A DNA stretch of 21,013 nt from Candidatus Iainarchaeum sp. GTDB taxonomy: Archaea > Iainarchaeota > Iainarchaeia > Iainarchaeales > GCA-2688035. Made by a program: the position numbers and the translations under genes. Positions within the stretch are counted from its first letter, which is position 1. Each line of letters begins with the position of its first letter. The stretch spans positions 1-21,013 of the forward strand of contig JAQTNI010000022.1 of NCBI GenBank assembly GCA_028713935.1, read 5' to 3'. The notes beneath the pieces were generated by a model. The model saw only the letters and a program-made list of their open reading frames with translations, had not been told where the DNA came from and ran no database searches. This document shows, piece after piece, positions 4,711 through 19,182 of the stretch.

Positions 4711-5337
4711 ATGCAGGGATTCAATGCAAAGGAATTTTCAGCGCATTCGCAGATAGTGGCGCTTGCTGGCAAAAACAGGAAAATACTGGAATTTGGCTGC
4801 GGAAAAGGCTTTGTTTCGGAACAATTGCAGAAAAACTGCAACAAGGTCACTGCAATAGAAATCGACACTGAAAGCGCAGGGCAGGCTGAAAAATTCTGCG
4901 AAAAAATAATTCTGGGAAACATTGAAAAAATTGATTTTGAAAAAATCGGAAAGGATTTTGATGCCGCAATTTTTGCTGATGTCCTTGAACATTTGAAAAA
5001 TCCAGAAGAAACCATTGCAAAAACAAAAAAATTGCTTTCCCTTGAAGGAAAAATAATTGTTTCAGTGCCGAATATTGCAAACTGGAAAATCAGATTTGGA
5101 TTGCTGCTTGGAAAATTTGATTATGCAAAGCAGGGAATTCTTGACAAAACACACCTAAAATTTTTCACCTTGAAGACAATTAAAAAGGCAATTGAAAACT
5201 CTGGCTTTGAAATTGAAAAAATTTCTTCTGTGCCAAGCGCGCCAGTGCCTTCGATGGCACTGAAAAAAGCCCTGTCAAAAATTTTTCCCGGGGCGTTTTC
5301 ATTCCAGTTTATTATTCTTGCAAGGGTGAAAAAGTGA
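4711..5337 (+). CDS. Class I SAM-dependent methyltransferase.
   Basis: The product is 208 aa from the ATG at 4711, with GGTGG 5-9 nt upstream. Motif I is ILEFGCGKGFVSEQL. The acidic loop is TAIEID. The post-I/III region is DAAIFADVLEHLKNPEE...GKIIVSVPN. Confidence 0.85.
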   Translation: MQGFNAKEFSAHSQIVALAGKNRKILEFGCGKGFVSEQLQKNCNKVTAIEIDTESAGQAEKFCEKIILGNIEKIDFEKIGKDFDAAIFADVLEHLKNPEETIAKTKKLLSLEGKIIVSVPNIANWKIRFGLLLGKFDYAKQGILDKTHLKFFTLKTIKKAIENSGFEIEKISSVPSAPVPSMALKKALSKIFPGAFSFQFIILARVKK

Positions 5338-5343
5338 TTGACC

Positions 5344-5418
5344 TGTTTACCAAAGATTCAAGATTCTTTCTTTTTGGCACCCTACATTTTTCTTTCTTCC
5401 CAAGAAAGAAAAAGGCGG
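5344..5418 (+). repeat. Conserved 75-nt intergenic element, copy 1, containing Py-tract A, an 11-nt linker, Py-tract B, a CCC loop and Pu-tract C.
   Basis: A is 5364-5375 TTCTTTCTTTTT. The linker is 5376-5386 GGCACCCTACA. B is 5387-5398 TTTTTCTTTCTT. The loop is 5399-5401 CCC. C is 5402-5413 AAGAAAGAAAAA. B and C form a perfect 12-bp inverted repeat, and A is the exact mirror of B. An ungapped alignment to the reverse complement of 19089-19163 gives 54/75 identities. The element is followed by GGCGGAGGTG (SD-like, 5414-5423) and the ATG at 5429. Confidence 0.75.
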
Positions 5419-5428
5419 AGGTGCGAAA

Positions 5429-6601
5429 ATGAAAGCCAGCGTAATAATCCCAGCTTACAATGCGGAAAAAACAATCGGGCAATGCCTTGAAGCACTTGAA
5501 AAGCAGGCCTTTGGAAATTTTGAAGTTATTGTTGTTGATGATGGGAGCAAAGACAAAACAGCGGAAATAGTTGAAAAATTCAAAGGCACAAAATTGCTGC
5601 GGCAGAAAAATTCCGGGCCAGCAGCTGCAAGAAACCTCGGGGCAAAAAGCGCGAAAGGCGAAATAATTGTTTTCACTGATTCTGACTGCATTGCCGAAAA
5701 AAATTTTCTGGATGAAATTTTGGCGCCTTTTTCAGACAAAAGAGTCGCGGGAGTGCAGGGCAAATACAAAAGCAGGCAAAAAGAAGATTTCGCAGTCATA
5801 ACACAAGAAGAAATAGAGCACAGACATAAAAAAATAGAATCAAAACTCATCGACTCAATAGGGAGCTACGCTGCTGCTTACCGCAAAGATGTTTTTGAAA
5901 TGATGGGGGGTTTTGACACTAGCTTTCCAAAAGCATCTGGTGAAGATACTGATTTGAGTTATCGCATAAGTGAAGCAGGATATAAAATGGTTTTTGCAGA
6001 AAAAGCAATTGTCTGGCATACCCACCCAAACACATTACGTAAATATCTCGAAGTAAAATTTCTTAGGGCCTTTTGGAGAATCAAGGTTTATGGAAAACAT
6101 AAACAAAAAACTGTTCATGACTCGTACACATCAACAGCTATGAAGGCTCAAATTATAGCAATGGCTGGAATTTTAATCTTCAGCCTATTGACCGTGCTTG
6201 CGTTGGCGATTAAAGACACTGAACTGCTCCTTGTATTGACTATCATAATGGCAATGTTTTCAATAATATTCATTCTAAGCTTTTTCGCATTCATAATTAG
6301 ATTAGCAAAACATGAAGAAGGCAAAGCGATCCTTTTATTTGCAGTATTTTATTTTGGATTATGTGCCTGTTTGCTTAACTATTCCACAACAAATACAAGC
6401 ATATTAACACAAGTATTGTGGGTGGCAGTAGTAATCTCAATTGCTGCAATATTCGTGTCAAGCGCATCTTTCTTCTGGTACTTATGGAAAAAAAATAAGA
6501 GAATAGCCGTGATTTTCGAGTTAACGCTACTATTAAGAACAGGGGCCTTTCTAGCAGGCATTGTCGCGGGAACAATTCGGCAGGTGCGTAATTCTATATG
6601 A
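5429..6601 (+). CDS. Family 2 glycosyltransferase fused to a C-terminal polytopic membrane domain.
   Basis: The product is 390 aa. The N-terminal part reads MKASVIIPAYNAEKTIGQCLEAL...FEVIVVDDGSKDKT...NSGPAAARNLGA...IIVFTDSDC (DxD)...GEDTDLSYR. After residue ~235 there are about 5 hydrophobic helices: IIAMAGILIFSLLTVLALAI, LLLVLTIIMAMFSIIFILSFFAFII, AILLFAVFYFGLCACLL, VLWVAVVISIAAIFVSSASFFWYLW and IAVIFELTLLLRTGAFLAGIVAG. Confidence 0.85.
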   Translation: MKASVIIPAYNAEKTIGQCLEALEKQAFGNFEVIVVDDGSKDKTAEIVEKFKGTKLLRQKNSGPAAARNLGAKSAKGEIIVFTDSDCIAEKNFLDEILAPFSDKRVAGVQGKYKSRQKEDFAVITQEEIEHRHKKIESKLIDSIGSYAAAYRKDVFEMMGGFDTSFPKASGEDTDLSYRISEAGYKMVFAEKAIVWHTHPNTLRKYLEVKFLRAFWRIKVYGKHKQKTVHDSYTSTAMKAQIIAMAGILIFSLLTVLALAIKDTELLLVLTIIMAMFSIIFILSFFAFIIRLAKHEEGKAILLFAVFYFGLCACLLNYSTTNTSILTQVLWVAVVISIAAIFVSSASFFWYLWKKNKRIAVIFELTLLLRTGAFLAGIVAGTIRQVRNSI

Positions 6602-8591: not shown

Positions 8592-9691
8592 AAAAAATAG
8601 CAATTGTTTTTGGGACAAGGCCTGAAATAATAAAATTGGCTGAAATAATCCTGCTTTTGAAAAAAGAGAAAAGTGTGCAGGCGCTTCTTGTTTTCACTGG
8701 CCAGCATTATGATTACGGCTTGTTCGGAGTTTTCATGAAAGAGCTTGATTTGCCTGAGCCGGACATTAATCTTGGAATTGGTTCAGGAACCCAGGCATAT
8801 CAAATTGGGACAATGCTGATGAAGCTTGAAGAATATTTCCAGAAAGAAAAGCCAGACATTGTCACTGCACTGGGAGACACAAATTCTGTTTTTGGCGCTG
8901 CTCTTGCAGCGGAAAAAGCGCAAATTCCATTTGCCCATATAGAGGCGGGAATCAGGAGCTTTGACAGGAGCATGCCTGAAGAAGTAAACAGGGTTCTCAC
9001 AGACCAGATTTCAAGCTACTGTTTTGCGCCAACAAAAACAGCAGTTGAAAACCTTCACAAAAGCGAAGCATTTAAGCATAGGATTTTCCTCACTGGAAAT
9101 CCAATAGTGGAAGTGGTTGAAAAAAATCTTGAGAGGGCGGGAAAATCACAAATTCTTGGACAGCTGAACCTTGAAAAAGAAAAATTTGTTGTCCTCACAA
9201 TGCACCGCGCTGAAAATGTTGACAGCAGGGAAAAGCTTGAAAACATTGCAATTGCGCTGCAGGCAATAAAATGGCCAGTTGTGTTCCCAATGCATCCGAG
9301 GACAAAGGCCAAGATTGCGGAATTTGGCTTGAAGGAAAAATTTGAATGCATAAAAAATTTGGTTGTTGCTGAGCCCCTTGGCTATTTTGATTTTTTGCAG
9401 TTGTGCGCAAACTCGCGCTATATCCTGTCTGATTCTGGGGGGATACAGGAAGAGGCGACTGTTTACAAAAAATTTGTAATTATTCTCAGGGAGAACACTG
9501 AAAGGCCTGAGATTCTGGGAAAATTCGGGGTTTTAACCGGCTTTAATGCCAAAAAAATAATTGCGGCAGCAGGCAAAATTGAAAAGGATTATCCTGCACT
9601 GAAAAAAAAATTGGAAAAAAGGAACTGCCCCTTTGGGGACGGAAATGCAAGCAGGAGAATTGTTGAAAAGATTGCGGGGGCGGTGCAATAA
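8588..9691 (+). CDS. wecB: UDP-N-acetylglucosamine 2-epimerase (WecB/MnaA family).
   Basis: The product is 367 aa with an ATGA overlap onto the upstream stop. Motifs seen: KKIAIVFGTRPEIIKLAEI, FAHIEAGIRSFDRSMPEEVNRVLTDQIS, LTMHRAENVD and LSDSGGIQEEA. Confidence 0.9.
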   Translation: MKKIAIVFGTRPEIIKLAEIILLLKKEKSVQALLVFTGQHYDYGLFGVFMKELDLPEPDINLGIGSGTQAYQIGTMLMKLEEYFQKEKPDIVTALGDTNSVFGAALAAEKAQIPFAHIEAGIRSFDRSMPEEVNRVLTDQISSYCFAPTKTAVENLHKSEAFKHRIFLTGNPIVEVVEKNLERAGKSQILGQLNLEKEKFVVLTMHRAENVDSREKLENIAIALQAIKWPVVFPMHPRTKAKIAEFGLKEKFECIKNLVVAEPLGYFDFLQLCANSRYILSDSGGIQEEATVYKKFVIILRENTERPEILGKFGVLTGFNAKKIIAAAGKIEKDYPALKKKLEKRNCPFGDGNASRRIVEKIAGAVQ

Positions 9692-10743
9692 AAGTCCTCT
9701 TTAATACTTCGCAGGGCGCCTTCAAAAGCCCGGGAGGCGGGGAAATCCAGCTCTTAAAAACAAAGCAGGGGCTTGAAAAGCTCGGCCTGGAAATAGAAAT
9801 TTTTAACGGAACGCAAAGAATTCCTGATTTTGATTTGCTGCACAATTTCAGCATTCACAGGGACACTTTTCCAGTTGTGCAAAAAGCATTCGAGGCAAAA
9901 GTGCCTGTTGCAATTTCAACAATTTATTGGCCTTCGCTCAAGCATTCCCTGTTATGGAACAGGGGCCTTGGGAAAAAAGCAAGGGCGCTTGCCGTAGAAT
10001 TAATTAACAGGCTGGATTTTTTCGGGTTTTCAAGCGTAAAAAAAACACTGAGGCGAGCAGATTTGCTTCTTCCGAATTCAGAAACAGAGAAAAAAATTGT
10101 TTTGGATTATTTTGGCGTGAAAAAAGAGAGAATAGTTCCTATTGTAAATGGCGTTGATGAAAGATTCAAAGATGCAAATTCAAAAGAATTTGAGCAAAAA
10201 TTCGGGCTCAAGAATTTTGTTTTATATGTGGGGAGAATTGAGGAAAGAAAAAATGTGCTCTCGCTCGTGCGTGCAATGAAGGATTCAAAGGAAAAACTTG
10301 TGATTATTGGCAATGCAAAATATGGCAGTGAAAAATATGCAGAAAAATGCAGGGAAGAAGCGGGAAAAAACACTGTTTTTTTGCCTGGGATTCCGCATGA
10401 GTCAGGCCTGCTTGAAAGCGCTTATGCAGCGTGCAGGGTTTTCGCATTGCCAAGCTGGTATGAAACTCCCGGGCTTGCAGCGCTTGAAGCCGGGCTTGCA
10501 GGCGCAAACATTGTGATTACACAGGAAGGCTGCACAAAAGAGTATTTTGGCGAGTTTGCGTCTTATGTGAATCCTGCGAGCGTAAAGGACATCAGGGAAA
10601 AAATTTTTTTTGAATTTGAAAAAGCGGGAAATAAAGGGCTGCAACAGCGCATAATGAAAAATTTTTTGTGGAAAAACACTGCCCTGCGGACTTTTGAGGC
10701 CTACAAAAAAATAGCAAAAACTGAAAAAAATAGAAGCGATTGA
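9688..10743 (+). CDS. GT4 glycosyltransferase whose conserved N-terminus lacks a canonical start codon. It is either ATA-initiated or a start-codon-mutated gene.
   Basis: The track ORF starts at a TTG at 9835. The same frame is open from 9667 and encodes (I)KVLFNTSQGAFKSPGGGEIQLLKTKQGLEKLGLEIEIFNG, a typical GT4 N-terminal beta1 strand and Gly-rich loop. No ATG, GTG or TTG occurs in frame between 9667 and 9835. ATA at 9688-9690 overlaps the wecB TAA as ATAA. The C-terminal part has ETPGLAALEAGLAGANIV (EX7E). Confidence 0.7.
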   Translation: MKVLFNTSQGAFKSPGGGEIQLLKTKQGLEKLGLEIEIFNGTQRIPDFDLLHNFSIHRDTFPVVQKAFEAKVPVAISTIYWPSLKHSLLWNRGLGKKARALAVELINRLDFFGFSSVKKTLRRADLLLPNSETEKKIVLDYFGVKKERIVPIVNGVDERFKDANSKEFEQKFGLKNFVLYVGRIEERKNVLSLVRAMKDSKEKLVIIGNAKYGSEKYAEKCREEAGKNTVFLPGIPHESGLLESAYAACRVFALPSWYETPGLAALEAGLAGANIVITQEGCTKEYFGEFASYVNPASVKDIREKIFFEFEKAGNKGLQQRIMKNFLWKNTALRTFEAYKKIAKTEKNRSD

Positions 10744-10870
10744 GTGGCGGATTGCATGGCAATGAAAAAATTGGCGGGAAACCAGCTTGGACTGCCTGAA
10801 AAGCACTGGCTTGAAAATGCAATCTTTGAATTATGCACCATAAATTCTTTTATATTTTTTATCCATAGAT

Positions 10871-10882
10871 TAATTAAATAAC
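10871..10882 (+). promoter_or_regulatory. TATA-like A/T box upstream of the NeuB-family gene.
   Basis: TTAATTAAATAA lies 24-35 nt upstream of the ATG at 10906. A second A/T box, TTTATATT, lies at about 10848-10855. The 162-nt intergenic gap follows the end of the long plus-strand operon. Confidence 0.3.
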
Positions 10883-10905
10883 AAAAAATCCAAACAGCGG
10901 TAAAA

Positions 10906-19088: not shown

Positions 19089-19163
19089 CCGCCCTTCTTT
19101 TCTTTTCAAAAGAAAAGAAGTGTAGGGTGCCTAAGAAAAGAAATCTTGAATTGTTGATAAACA
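19089..19163 (-). repeat. Conserved 75-nt intergenic element, copy 2, in inverted orientation relative to copy 1.
   Basis: The minus strand reads TGTTTATCAACAATTCAAGA-TTTCTTTTCTT-A-GGCACCCTACA-CTTCTTTTCTTTT-G-AAAAGAAAAGAAG-GGCGG. In plus-strand coordinates, A' is 19143-19133, the linker is 19131-19121, B' is 19120-19108 and C' is 19106-19094. B' and C' form a 13-bp perfect inverted repeat. A' is the parallel Hoogsteen match to 11 positions of C'. The 11-nt linker is identical to copy 1. Confidence 0.75.
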
Positions 19164-19182
19164 AACGCAAAAAGTGTTACAA

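What the first reader, a model, noticed from the sequence alone, without database searches (positions are those of the whole stretch)
5344..5418. Intergenic element carrying all three strands of a perfect 12-triplet intramolecular triple helix next to a ribosome-binding site
The following is read directly from the sequence. A is 5364-5375 TTCTTTCTTTTT, the linker is 5376-5386 GGCACCCTACA, B is 5387-5398 TTTTTCTTTCTT, the loop is CCC, and C is 5402-5413 AAGAAAGAAAAA. B and C are perfectly complementary and form a 12-bp hairpin. A is the exact mirror image of B. Read 5'->3', A is therefore the exact pyrimidine-motif (parallel Hoogsteen) partner of purine strand C at all 12 positions, giving 10 T.A-T (U.A-U in RNA) and 2 C+.G-C triplets. 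One strand thus encodes a Py-linker-Py-loop-Pu arrangement, the same layout used in designed intramolecular triplex oligonucleotides. In duplex DNA, A and B also form a textbook H-DNA mirror repeat. The element occupies the only real gap (91 nt) in an otherwise overlapping plus-strand operon. Its purine strand ends immediately before GGCGGAGGTG (SD-like) and 15 nt before the ATG at 5429. As inference only: it could be a structured leader controlling translation or processing of the downstream GT2-GT4-GT2-wecB-GT4 genes. The C+.G-C triplets would make such a structure pH- or Mg-sensitive. Alternatively it could be a DNA-level H-DNA or protein-binding element. I do not recognise it as any named RNA family.
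Basis: partly seen in the sequence, partly recalled or inferred. Interest (0 to 1): 0.8.

Follow-up and report, generated by a model that had tools for sequence, protein, structure and literature searches.

The report
Triplex-prone repeat inserted in archaeal operon
An 80-base repeat that inserted twice into the sugar-coat gene cluster of a tiny (DPANN) archaeon has three arms that could fold into a triple helix and that change together between copies, which is uncommon comparative evidence that such folding is selected, although this kind of element is already known from bacteria.

Summary
The "operon leader" interpretation is not supported.

- **Source:** the window is a contig of a Candidatus Iainarchaeum MAG, a DPANN archaeon.
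- **Element:** the three arms are the core of an ~80-nt element at 5338-5418. A second copy lies inverted at 19089-19168.
- **Conservation:** the two copies share an identical 11-nt linker, the terminal GGCGG and a 25-nt tail.
- **Covariation:** the arms differ at 5 of 12 triplet columns. The hairpin partner compensates at 5 of 5 and the third arm at 4 of 5.
- **Insertion:** both copies are lineage-specific. Orthologous operons have the MT stop overlapping the GT2 start (ATGA) with no spacer. Relatives at 83-86% identity have an empty site where copy 2 sits.
- **Other copies:** the same Py-loop-Pu-linker-mirror-Pu architecture, with other arms and linkers, occurs elsewhere. One copy lies inside a tRNA-Leu gene, two next to another tRNA-Leu, one in a related Iainarchaeota operon, and others in IMG/VR contigs.
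- **Symmetry:** the mirror match beats the direct-repeat match in 8 of 8 instances.
- **Known kind:** this matches the "potential intrastrand triplex" elements of bacteria (BoxC/PIT/TM_ECO; Holder 2015). Here it is A/T-rich, archaeal and has long loops.
- **Mechanism:** orientation relative to transcription varies, so a DNA-level fold is the more likely one.

The parts
5323..5337 (+). Left copy of a possible ~14-15-bp target duplication. It is the 3' end of the methyltransferase gene, AGGGTGAAAAAGTGA, including its stop codon.
   Evidence: Matches the right copy at 10/15 positions and the empty site of L005 (GGGGTGCTCAAATGA) at 10/15. Sequence; identities counted by hand from those outputs.
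5338..5363 (+). Tail of element copy 1: TTGACCTGTTTACCAAAGATTCAAGA.
   Evidence: Homologous to the tail of copy 2 at 17 of 25 aligned positions, including TTCAAGA. Absent from orthologous junctions.
5364..5375 (+). Arm A, TTCTTTCTTTTT. This is the third (Hoogsteen, parallel) pyrimidine arm and the exact mirror of B. It contains a T5 run.
   Evidence: Mirror match 12/12 with flank-shuffle P of about 1e-5. Left unpaired in the ssDNA fold.
5376..5386 (+). Linker GGCACCCTACA.
   Evidence: 11/11 identical to the linker of copy 2, which reads TGTAGGGTGCC on the other strand. In the mRNA-sense fold it pairs with the SD region.
5387..5398 (+). Arm B, TTTTTCTTTCTT. This is the Watson-Crick pyrimidine arm of the hairpin. 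It contains a T5 run.
5399..5401 (+). Hairpin loop CCC.
   Evidence: The same loop occurs in L004, and it reads GGG on the other strand in L003b and L005.
5402..5413 (+). Arm C, AAGAAAGAAAAA. This is the purine arm of the hairpin.
   Evidence: The 12-bp hairpin has about -9 kcal/mol as DNA.
5414..5418 (+). Terminal GGCGG of the element.
   Evidence: 5/5 identical to the CCGCC that begins the copy 2 insertion.
5419..5432 (+). Right copy of the possible target duplication, AGGTGCGAAAATGA. It holds the old Shine-Dalgarno-like GGTG and the ancestral ATG of GT2.
   Evidence: Counted from 5418, it matches the L005 empty site at 12/15 (hand count). The GT2 N-terminus is identical to that of orthologues from Met1.
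19089..19168 (-). Element copy 2, an 80-nt insertion. Read on the plus strand it is CCGCC, Py arm 19094-19105, loop TCA, Pu arm 19109-19120, linker 19121-19131, mirror Pu arm 19132-19143 (11/12), and tail 19144-19168.
   Evidence: Empty site in L142, L143 and L141. Flank-shuffle P = 2e-4.

Best explanation
Region 5338-5418 is one of two copies in this window of an ~80-nt repeat element that inserted recently into intergenic spots of an Iainarchaeota (DPANN archaeon) genome. Its core is an A/T-rich intrastrand-triplex motif. On one strand it reads pyrimidine arm, 3-nt loop, complementary purine arm, linker, then a second purine arm that mirrors the first. On the other strand it reads Hoogsteen pyrimidine arm, linker, pyrimidine arm, loop, purine arm.

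The arms are kept, by three-way co-variation, able to fold on a single strand into a 12-bp hairpin with the third arm lying in its major groove. The triplets would be T.A-T and C+.G-C on the pyrimidine-rich strand, and A.A-T and G.G-C on the purine-rich strand.

I infer that this fold forms in DNA rather than in mRNA. It could form when the DNA is transiently single-stranded during replication or element propagation, or as an H-DNA-like extrusion under supercoiling. The element would then behave like the bacterial BoxC/PIT/TM_ECO repeats: a selfish or neutral, insertion-polymorphic intergenic repeat.

Its effects on the glycosyltransferase operon are side effects. It broke the ATGA overlap between the methyltransferase and GT2 genes. 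It placed two T5 tracts, which are archaeal termination signals, and a hairpin just before GT2. GT2 probably kept its old SD and ATG through a ~14-bp target duplication.

Shown: anatomy, significance, second copy, insertion status, co-variation, recurrence elsewhere. Inferred: that the triplex really forms, that it forms in DNA, and how the element spreads.
For: **Anatomy and significance.**

**Second copy.** It lies inverted, with the linker 11/11 identical, GGCGG 5/5 and the tail about 17/25. Each arm is only 7/12 identical, and the changes are coordinated.

**Insertion status.**
- Orthologous MT-GT2 junctions are ...CAAATGAAGG... with no spacer, in 11 loci from several samples.
- Copy 2 is an 80-nt insertion relative to relatives at 83% and 86% identity.
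- Conversely, L005, L006 and L008 carry a small three-arm element (CTTTTCTT GGG AAGAAAAG CCTTGG GAAAAGAA) at a spacer where the window has none.

**Recurrence with other arms and linkers.** L003a, L003b, L004, L137 and L140.

**Mirror symmetry.** The mirror match exceeds the best direct-repeat match in 8 of 8 instances. Each has P between 5e-6 and 9e-4 after flank shuffling.

**Controls.**
- Of 17 viral Py/Pu hairpins with 10-nt arms, only L137 and the simple-sequence repeat L138 have a third arm.
- Weak hairpins in 73 kb of other Iainarchaeota lack a third arm.

**Orientation relative to transcription varies.**
- The pyrimidine-motif strand is sense at copy 1 and at L005.
- The purine-motif strand is sense in the two tRNA-linked copies.
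- Purine-motif triplexes are reported not to form in RNA (PMC4666352).

**Folding.** ssDNA folds make the B:C hairpin and leave the third arm free.

**Precedent.** TM_ECO/BoxC has the same architecture. It is always intergenic, shows no strand bias, varies between strains, sometimes occurs as inverted pairs, and forms a triplex in vitro.
Against: - No experiment shows a triplex here. A/T-rich purine-motif triplexes are weak, and the 11-nt second loop exceeds the loop limits used in published searches.
- The sample is small: 8 instances.
  - Three share essentially the same arms.
  - Two (L137, L140) were found with a pattern that forced three core copies, so only their extensions are informative.
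- The arm cores (AAGAAAGAA, AAGAAAAGAA) are themselves mirror-symmetric. Mirror and direct are therefore separated only by a few flanking positions.
- No transposase, terminal inverted repeats or consistent target duplication were found. Copy 1 has about 14 bp duplicated at 10/15 identity; copy 2 has none. The mode of spread is therefore unknown.
- At copy 1 and at L005 the pyrimidine-motif strand is the mRNA strand, so an RNA triple helix there is not excluded.
Confidence: 0.6

Rival explanations
1. RNA-level cis-regulator. In the operon mRNA the U-rich arm A clamps the B:C hairpin as a U.A-U / C+.G-C triple helix. This helix, or the extended hairpin, hides the Shine-Dalgarno sequence. It would make GT2 translation or mRNA processing depend on pH, Mg2+ or temperature.
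For: - The pyrimidine-motif strand is the mRNA-sense strand at copy 1 and at L005.
- The MFE fold of 5338-5431 extends the hairpin so that the linker GCACCC pairs with GGAGGUGC. It has -26.1 kcal/mol and z = -2.9.
- Pyrimidine-motif intrastrand triplexes can form in RNA (PMC4666352).
Against: - The element is absent from all orthologous operons, where MT and GT2 overlap.
- The SD-proximal 10 nt lie outside the element and look like duplicated target sequence.
- Copy 2 is inverted and sits in a divergent promoter region.
- The tRNA-linked copies put the purine-motif strand in the sense orientation.
- The linker-SD pairing is not reproduced at copy 2.
- Two T5 runs would tend to terminate archaeal transcription before the hairpin is made (own knowledge of archaeal oligo-T termination).
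Confidence: 0.12
2. Archaeal oligo-T terminator or insulator module. The arms matter only as T-rich tracts, two on one strand and one on the other. They stop transcription from both directions, and the hairpin and mirror symmetry are incidental.
For: - Each pyrimidine arm carries T5-T6.
- L003b starts immediately after the 3' end of a tRNA-Leu gene.
- The L005 copy follows a stop codon, is followed by GC TTTTTT, and then by a conserved AT-rich promoter-like stretch.
- Archaeal RNA polymerase terminates at oligo-T without needing a hairpin (own knowledge).
Against: - It does not explain why the C/G positions are mirrored in 8 of 8 instances, nor why the three arms co-vary between copies 1 and 2.
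- Copy 1 sits inside an operon whose orthologues are translationally coupled.
- Copy 2 sits between divergent genes where nothing needs terminating.
- The L004 copy is inside a tRNA gene in sense orientation, where a terminator would be harmful.
- The bacterial-style terminator scan does not flag it.
- PIT elements showed no terminator activity in E. coli.
Confidence: 0.12
3. Two-state hairpin switch. Arm B pairs either with C or with the third arm, giving alternative structures. An example would be closing the ends of the tRNA intron in L004.
For: - In the L004 pre-tRNA fold, B pairs with the third arm. This closes a rod next to a bulge-helix-bulge-like junction.
- The arm cores are self-mirror, so B can pair with 9-10 nt of either purine arm (sequence).
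Against: - Alternative pairing predicts direct repeats (C equal to the third arm). In all 8 instances the mirror match is better than the best direct match.
- The MFE folds of both window copies use B:C and leave the third arm free.
Confidence: 0.05
4. A chance low-complexity coincidence in an A-rich genome.
For: - The genome has about 40% G+C and is A-rich on coding strands.
- Single 12-mers like arm A with one mismatch occur at chance frequency.
- Purine mirror repeats are common in some viral contigs.
Against: - 0 of 400 shuffles give even one such three-arm motif.
- A second copy shares the linker and tail.
- Third arms recur in loci that were found by the hairpin alone.
Confidence: 0.01

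Closest known systems
Potential intrastrand triplex (PIT) elements, also called BoxC or TM_ECO, of E. coli and other bacteria (Hoyne/Maher 2000 as cited in, and Holder et al. 2015, PMC4666352)
   Same: - The three-block architecture on one strand is the same: Py stem, loop, Pu stem, loop, mirror Pu stem. That is a purine motif on one strand and a pyrimidine motif on the complement.
- It is always intergenic and is found in both orientations.
- It is present or absent between close relatives.
- It sometimes occurs as close inverted pairs; compare L003a and L003b.
- It has no associated transposase.
   Different: - TM_ECO is G/C-rich (CCCTCNCCC... GGGNGAGGG), with 9-nt stems and a 3-nt second loop. 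Its copies are almost identical, so it offers no co-variation.
- This element is A/T-rich with 8-14-nt stems and second loops of 5-14 nt.
- It lies in an archaeon and in viral and metagenomic contigs.
- Its arms differ between copies while keeping triple complementarity.
- There is no sequence similarity between the two.
H-DNA (homopurine-homopyrimidine mirror repeats in duplex DNA)
   Same: Arms C and the third arm (or A and B) form a perfect 12-nt homopurine/homopyrimidine mirror repeat.
   Different: - Classical H-DNA needs only the mirror repeat. Here a third block makes an inverted repeat as well, so one strand alone carries all three strands.
- The 11-nt spacer is long for H-DNA.
- The many viral mirror repeats seen are of the plain H-DNA type and lack the hairpin arm.
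ENE / MALAT1 / PAN-type RNA triple helices (U-rich motifs clamping a 3' A-rich tract)
   Same: On the pyrimidine-rich strand the order is U-rich (Hoogsteen), U-rich (Watson-Crick), then A-rich. The triplets would be U.A-U with interspersed C+.G-C.
   Different: - There is no Rfam match.
- There is no flanking G-C clamp stem, and the A-rich arm is not known to be an RNA 3' end.
- Half of the copies are oriented so that the sense RNA would carry the purine motif.
REP/BIME and MITE-type small intergenic repeats
   Same: It is short, non-coding, intergenic and hairpin-forming, with multiple copies and insertion polymorphism between relatives.
   Different: - There are no terminal inverted repeats.
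- Target duplication is seen at one copy only.
- No cognate transposase (RAYT or IS) is visible in the sequence available.
Non-canonical bulge-helix-bulge introns of archaeal tRNA genes
   Same: The L004 copy is a 61-nt insert in the D-loop of a tRNA-Leu(CAG). Removing it restores a perfect tRNA. Its ends fold into a 5-bp helix flanked by two bulges.
   Different: - The bulges are 4 and 2 nt and the helix is 5 bp, not the canonical 3-4-3 arrangement.
- Splicing is untested.
- The window copies are not in tRNA genes.

Membership tests
Intrastrand triplex motif (PIT / ITxF class II with pyrimidine-motif complement) | Three consecutive blocks on one strand: a pyrimidine stem, an antiparallel complementary purine stem, and a third stem giving A.A-T/G.G-C triplets (T.A-T/C.G-C on the complement). 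| tested here: met
   Copy 1 is 12/12 in both relations and copy 2 is 12/12 hairpin with 11/12 third arm. Definition from PMC4666352.
Intrastrand triplex motif (PIT / ITxF class II with pyrimidine-motif complement) | Stem length 6-15 nt with at most one mismatched triplet. | tested here: met
   The stems are 12 nt, with 0 mismatches (copy 1) and 1 mismatch (copy 2). The paper reports that stems longer than 11 nt never occur in scrambled genomes.
Intrastrand triplex motif (PIT / ITxF class II with pyrimidine-motif complement) | Both loops short: 1-6 nt in ITxF, 0-10 nt in Hoyne et al. | tested here: not met
   Loop 1 is 3 nt, which fits. Loop 2 is 11 nt in both window copies, so the published searches would miss them. 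The copies in L004 and L005 (6 nt) and L137 (5 nt) do fit. This is a search parameter rather than a structural requirement.
Intrastrand triplex motif (PIT / ITxF class II with pyrimidine-motif complement) | The isolated strand forms a triplex in vitro (CD, UV melting, NMR). | not testable with these tools
   Secondary-structure prediction only shows that the hairpin forms and the third arm stays unpaired.
BoxC / TM_ECO sequence family | Consensus CCCTCNCCC N3-6 GGGNGAGGG N3 GGGNGAGGG. | tested here: not met
   The arms here are A/T-rich (TTTTTCTTTCTT / AAGAAAGAAAAA), with no similarity to that consensus.
BoxC / TM_ECO genomic behaviour | Intergenic only, no strand bias, presence or absence between close relatives. 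| tested here: met
   Both window copies are intergenic and lie in opposite orientations. Empty sites exist in relatives for both. The reverse polymorphism is seen at L005 versus the window. Compare.
H-DNA-forming mirror repeat | A perfect homopurine-homopyrimidine mirror repeat in duplex DNA. | tested here: met
   A and B (or C and the third arm) form a 12-nt perfect mirror with an 11-nt spacer. Extrusion under supercoiling is not testable here.
ENE / MALAT1-type RNA triple helix or any Rfam family | A match to a curated covariance model. | tested here: not met
   There are no hits at gathering thresholds in the window. With relaxed thresholds only sub-threshold generic hairpin (miRNA-precursor) matches appear.
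Conserved cis-regulatory leader of the GT operon | Presence at the orthologous position in related genomes. | tested here: not met
   The MT-GT2 junction has no spacer in L005-L014 and L135. L001 and L002 have 4-24 nt without the element.
MITE | Terminal inverted repeats. | tested here: not met
   The ends of the two copies (TTGACC.../GCGTTT... and ...GGCGG) are not inverted repeats of each other (read directly from the sequence).
MITE | Target-site duplication of fixed length. | tested here: inconclusive
   Copy 1 is flanked by AGGGTGAAAAAGTGA and GAGGTGCGAAAATGA (10/15 identical). Copy 2 shows no duplication against its empty site.
Archaeal oligo-T terminator | A T5 or longer tract on the sense strand shortly after a stop codon, with transcript 3' ends mapping there. 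| tested here: inconclusive
   T5 runs at 5371-5375 and 5387-5391 lie 34-54 nt after the MT stop. Copy 2 lies between divergent genes. Transcript ends are not testable here.
BHB tRNA intron (L004 copy only) | A precise insert whose removal restores the tRNA, with a helix flanked by two bulges at the splice sites. | tested here: inconclusive
   Removing 61 nt gives a perfect tRNA-Leu(CAG). The fold shows a 5-bp helix with 4-nt and 2-nt bulges, which is relaxed relative to the canonical form. Splicing is untested.

The most novel reading that the evidence does not exclude
The three-arm elements are a family of small archaeal (and viral) genetic elements whose biology depends on an intramolecular triple helix. 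Either the folded single strand is the form recognised for copying or insertion, or the U.A-U triple helix caps and stabilises RNA 3' ends in an ENE-like manner. Their insertion into tRNA genes would be one route by which non-canonical tRNA introns arise.
Probability: 0.15. Interest if true: 0.8.

Novelty: new variant of a known kind. Interest (0 to 1): 0.55.

Why it matters
Intrastrand triplex repeats have been catalogued in bacteria for 25 years without a function. The best-studied family, BoxC/TM_ECO, has near-identical copies, so it gives no evolutionary evidence that the three-stranded fold is what selection sees.

Here the copies have different arm sequences. All three arms change together while the linker stays fixed. 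That is the kind of comparative evidence normally used to establish RNA helices, applied to a triple helix.

The element also extends the phenomenon to DPANN archaea and to A/T-rich motifs that published searches treated as near-background. The window copies would also have been missed because of their long second loop.

It links such motifs to clean insertion events, including one inside a tRNA gene.

For the operon itself, the practical message is that the 91-nt spacer is a recent insertion scar. It may attenuate expression of GT2 and the downstream genes. It is not a conserved regulator.

Tried and rejected
1. **Rfam.** The whole window at gathering thresholds and both copies at relaxed thresholds gave nothing but sub-threshold generic hairpin hits.
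2. **Promoter and terminator scan.** The bacterial-type scan around copy 1 flagged nothing at the element. It is also of limited relevance for an archaeon.
3. **Exact look-ups.** The window GT2 protein and P0122 are not on record in the contig collection.
4. **Conserved leader.** Rejected, because the element is absent from 14 related loci.
5. **More copies of the window's own family.** I searched about 1.5 Mb of fetched loci for the linker TGTAGGGTGCC with up to 2 mismatches. Only the two window copies carry it in this context.
6. **More distant Iainarchaeota.** 73 kb (L159-L162) held no clear three-arm element.
7. **Exact 12-nt hairpin in viral contigs.** The viral scan gave 0 hits.
8. **Purine mirror pattern alone in viral contigs.** At least 120 hits, none with the hairpin arm, so they are a different thing.
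9. **tRNA detection.** ARAGORN without introns missed the interrupted tRNAs. Its intron-mode call for L004, tRNA-Arg with a 55-nt intron, was rejected in favour of tRNA-Leu(CAG) with a 61-nt D-loop insert.
10. **Alternative-hairpin model and direct-repeat model.** Both rejected by the mirror-versus-direct comparison.
11. **Not done.**
    - I did not build a covariance model, because such models cannot represent parallel or mirror pairing. A custom scanner was used instead.
    - A scripting pitfall, alignment files overwriting locus names, was found and corrected.
Full report
**1. The observation**

- A, TTCTTTCTTTTT, at 5364-5375.
- Linker, GGCACCCTACA, at 5376-5386.
- B, TTTTTCTTTCTT, at 5387-5398.
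- Loop CCC.
- C, AAGAAAGAAAAA, at 5402-5413.
- GGCGGAGGTG follows, and the ATG of a GT2 gene is at 5429.

B and C are perfectly complementary, and A is the exact mirror of B.

The arrangement is not a chance product of an A-rich genome:
- The 27-mer has an expectation of 0.00 in shuffles.
- Three-arm motifs with arms of at least 10 nt and at least two C occur twice in the window. None appears in any of 400 dinucleotide-preserving shuffles.
- When only the 34 nt next to the hairpin are shuffled, which keeps their purine richness, a 12/12 mirror match arises with P of about 1e-5.

One detail needs correcting. The 91-nt spacer is not the only plus-strand gap.
- 10744-10905 is a real AT-rich intergenic region.
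- 9692-9834 is an apparent gap that is coding, in frame back to an ATA at 9688.

**2. Where the window comes from**

The methyltransferase (MT) upstream of the element is 100% identical to an NCBI protein of a "Candidatus ainarchaeum sp." MAG, on a contig of exactly 21,013 bases. The nearest genome hits for GT2 are Iainarchaeota MAGs. The organism is therefore a DPANN archaeon, so archaeal rules apply: oligo-T termination, TATA/BRE promoters and BHB introns. The whole window is a surface-glycan gene cluster.

**3. A second copy, and the true extent of the element**

A scan for homopyrimidine/homopurine hairpins found a second one at 19094-19120. Read on the plus strand it is:

CCGCC CTTCTTTTCTTT TCA AAAGAAAAGAAG TGTAGGGTGCC TAAGAAAAGAAA TCTTGAATTGTTGATAAACAAACGC.

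This is the reverse-complement orientation of copy 1. Aligning the two shows:
- The 11-nt linker is identical.
- The terminal GGCGG is identical.
- About 17 of 25 tail positions are identical.
- Each arm is only 7/12 identical.

The purine arms differ at five of twelve triplet columns. The Watson-Crick pyrimidine arm compensates at all five, and the third arm compensates at four. The unit is therefore an ~80-nt element (5338-5418 and 19089-19168) with a conserved scaffold and three co-varying arms.

**4. Both copies are recent insertions**

*Copy 1.*
- In eleven loci carrying an MT at 66-70% identity, the gene order is the same: NTP-transferase, B12-radical SAM, MT, GT2, GT4, GT2, epimerase, GT4.
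- In those loci the MT stop overlaps the GT2 start.
- The alignment shows ...GGGGTGCTCAAATGAAGG... in the relatives. The window has ...AGGGTGAAAAAGTGA[81 nt]AGGTGCGAAAATGAAAG....
- GT2 is 71% identical to its orthologue and colinear from Met1.
- Two more distant Iainarchaeota loci lack both the MT gene and the element.

*Copy 2.*
- The neighbouring radical-SAM gene has relatives at 83% and 86% identity.
- Their upstream regions align to the window on both sides of a clean 80-nt gap.

*The reverse case.*
- The L005, L006 and L008 lineage carries a small three-arm element (CTTTTCTT GGG AAGAAAAG CCTTGG GAAAAGAA).
- It sits in a spacer where the window has unrelated sequence next to a conserved promoter-like stretch.

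*Target duplication.*
- At copy 1 the 15 nt before the element and the 15 nt from 5418 are 10/15 identical.
- The right-hand copy matches the empty site at 12/15. The old SD-like GGTG and the ATGA appear to have been duplicated with the insertion.
- Copy 2 shows no such duplication, so I treat this as suggestive only.

**5. The same architecture elsewhere**

- An exact search for the 27-mer in metagenome contigs gave two hits. Both also carry the mirror third arm, 13/13, with different linkers. That arm was not part of the query.
- In L003 the element begins immediately after the 3' end of a tRNA-Leu(TAA) gene, which has a 120-nt intron.
- A second, convergent element with different arms lies 32 nt away: TTTTTTCTTT ACCG AAAGAAAAAA ... 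AAAAAAGAAA. The pair is bracketed by a duplicated tRNA 3' end.
- In L004 the element is a 61-nt insert in the D-loop of a tRNA-Leu(CAG). Deleting it restores a perfect class II tRNA. The predicted fold has a 5-bp helix between two bulges, a relaxed bulge-helix-bulge shape.
- Pattern scans of IMG/VR found further cases. In L137 and L140 the arms extend beyond the forced core in the mirror sense.
- Across eight instances, each mirror match has P between 5e-6 and 9e-4 after flank shuffling. In all eight it is better than the best direct-repeat match at any offset.

Controls:
- Of 17 viral hairpins with 10-nt Py/Pu arms, only L137 and the simple-sequence repeat L138 have a third arm.
- Weak Py/Pu hairpins in 73 kb of other Iainarchaeota have none.
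- The third arm is therefore not an automatic by-product of low complexity.
- The element is sporadic. Most Iainarchaeota DNA examined lacks it.

**6. What constraint gives mirror symmetry**

- Antiparallel Watson-Crick pairing predicts inverted repeats.
- Alternative hairpins (B with C, or B with the third arm) predict direct repeats.
- Dimeric DNA-binding proteins predict inverted or direct repeats.
- A mirror relation is what parallel Hoogsteen binding (pyrimidine motif) or antiparallel reverse-Hoogsteen binding (purine motif) to the purine strand of a hairpin requires.
- The geometry fits. The linker joins ends that lie at the same end of the helix, and ssDNA folds make the B:C hairpin (about -9 kcal/mol) and leave the third arm free.

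I therefore accept triple-helix potential as the selected property, with moderate confidence. One caveat is that the arm cores are themselves mirror-symmetric, so only a few positions per copy discriminate. Another is that nothing has been measured.

**7. DNA or RNA?**

- At copy 1 and at L005 the mRNA-sense strand carries the pyrimidine motif, so an RNA triple helix is conceivable there.
- The MFE fold of the spacer does bury the SD, pairing the linker GCACCC with GGAGGUGC.
- However, the SD-proximal 10 nt are outside the element. Copy 2 is inverted in a divergent promoter region.
- The two tRNA-linked copies put the purine motif on the sense strand, and that motif is reported not to form in RNA (PMC4666352).
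- From my own knowledge of archaeal termination, the T5-T6 runs would tend to stop the polymerase before an F-orientation transcript is complete.
- A function common to all copies is therefore more likely at the DNA level, either on transiently single-stranded DNA or as an H-DNA-like extrusion.
- Effects on the GT operon are best seen as side effects of the insertion. These are the loss of translational coupling, possible attenuation at the T tracts, and SD occlusion.

**8. Comparison with what is known**

A literature search led to Holder et al. 2015 (PMC4666352). That paper, following Hoyne and Maher, describes "potential intrastrand triplex" elements. The prototype is BoxC/TM_ECO: CCCTCNCCC N3-6 GGGNGAGGG N3 GGGNGAGGG.

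Shared features:
- The Py-Pu-mirror-Pu layout.
- An always-intergenic location with no strand bias.
- Variable presence between strains.
- Occasional inverted pairs.
- Triplex formation in vitro.
- No promoter or terminator activity, and no known function beyond an association with genomic rearrangement.

Differences in the present element:
- It is A/T-rich, and it lies in an archaeon and in viral and metagenomic contigs.
- Its stems are longer, at 8-14 nt. The paper reports that stems above 11 nt never occur in scrambled genomes.
- Its second loop is 11 nt in the window, so the published finder (loops 1-6 nt) would miss it.
- Its copies differ in sequence, which gives three-way co-variation.

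It has no sequence relationship to BoxC and matches no Rfam family. It lacks the terminal inverted repeats of MITEs. I file it as a new variant of a known kind.

**9. Verdict**

- The operon-leader interpretation is not supported.
- The best explanation is an inserted, triplex-prone repeat element analogous to BoxC/PIT.
- Whether the triplex forms, in which nucleic acid, and how the element spreads remain inferences.

Interest is moderate to good. The kind is known, but the co-variation, the archaeal setting and the tRNA-intron link are new and testable.

Noticed in passing
L004 9889-10037 (metagenome contig OBEQ012648317.1): A tRNA-Leu(CAG) gene is interrupted in its D-loop by a 61-nt insert that consists of a three-arm triplex motif. 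Removing the insert restores a perfect tRNA. The insert ends fold into a relaxed bulge-helix-bulge shape. It is either a non-canonical intron or an element insertion tolerated as one.
   Followed up: partly
L003 13140-13320 (metagenome contig Ga0265594_1000222): Two convergent three-arm elements with different arms lie 32 nt apart. They are bracketed by a direct duplication of the 3' end of a tRNA-Leu(TAA) gene (GGTTGCGGGGGGAGGG..GATTTGAA), which resembles att sites of an integrated element. The tRNA itself has a 120-nt intron at position 38/39.
   Followed up: partly
IMG/VR loci L015-L134 (for example L017, L039, L046, L053, L067, L068, L088, L092; L027, L037, L078): At least 120 viral contigs carry the purine mirror repeat AAGAAAGAAAAA-N4-16-AAAAAGAAAGAA. 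Many carry it as part of much longer perfect purine mirror repeats, for example AAAAGAAAAGAAAGAAAAA-GGAC-AAAAAGAAAGAAAAGAAAAA, in a few recurrent sequence families. None has the pyrimidine hairpin arm. These are plain H-DNA-type repeats of unknown role.
   Followed up: no
window 9688-9834: The GT4 gene listed as starting at TTG 9835 (302 aa) continues in frame upstream as ...IKVLFNTSQGAF.... The position where relatives have the overlapping ATGA reads ATAA here, so the expected ATG start is ATA at 9688-9690. The gene either uses a non-canonical start or has lost its start codon.
   Followed up: partly
window 5429-6601 versus L005 10624-11592: The GT2 downstream of the element is 390 aa, against 322 aa in the orthologues. 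Residues 1-254 align at 71% identity, and the C-terminal membrane part is about 68 aa longer and poorly conserved.
   Followed up: no
L141 6200-6218: A relative at 86% identity has an 8-bp Py/Pu hairpin (CTTTCTTT TCC AAAGAAAG) in the spacer upstream of the same radical-SAM gene. On the other strand a third arm matches the mirror at only 6/8. This may be a decayed element.
   Followed up: no
window 5353-5366: A tandem direct repeat AAGATTC AAGATTC runs from the tail of copy 1 into arm A. Copy 2 has a single AATTCAAGA at the corresponding place.
   Followed up: no
L001 and L002 versus the window and L005-L014: The methyltransferase gene between the B12-radical-SAM gene and GT2 is present in the window and its closer relatives. 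It is absent from two other Iainarchaeota, where GT2 follows the radical-SAM gene directly. The cluster is therefore mosaic at this junction, independently of the element.
   Followed up: partly
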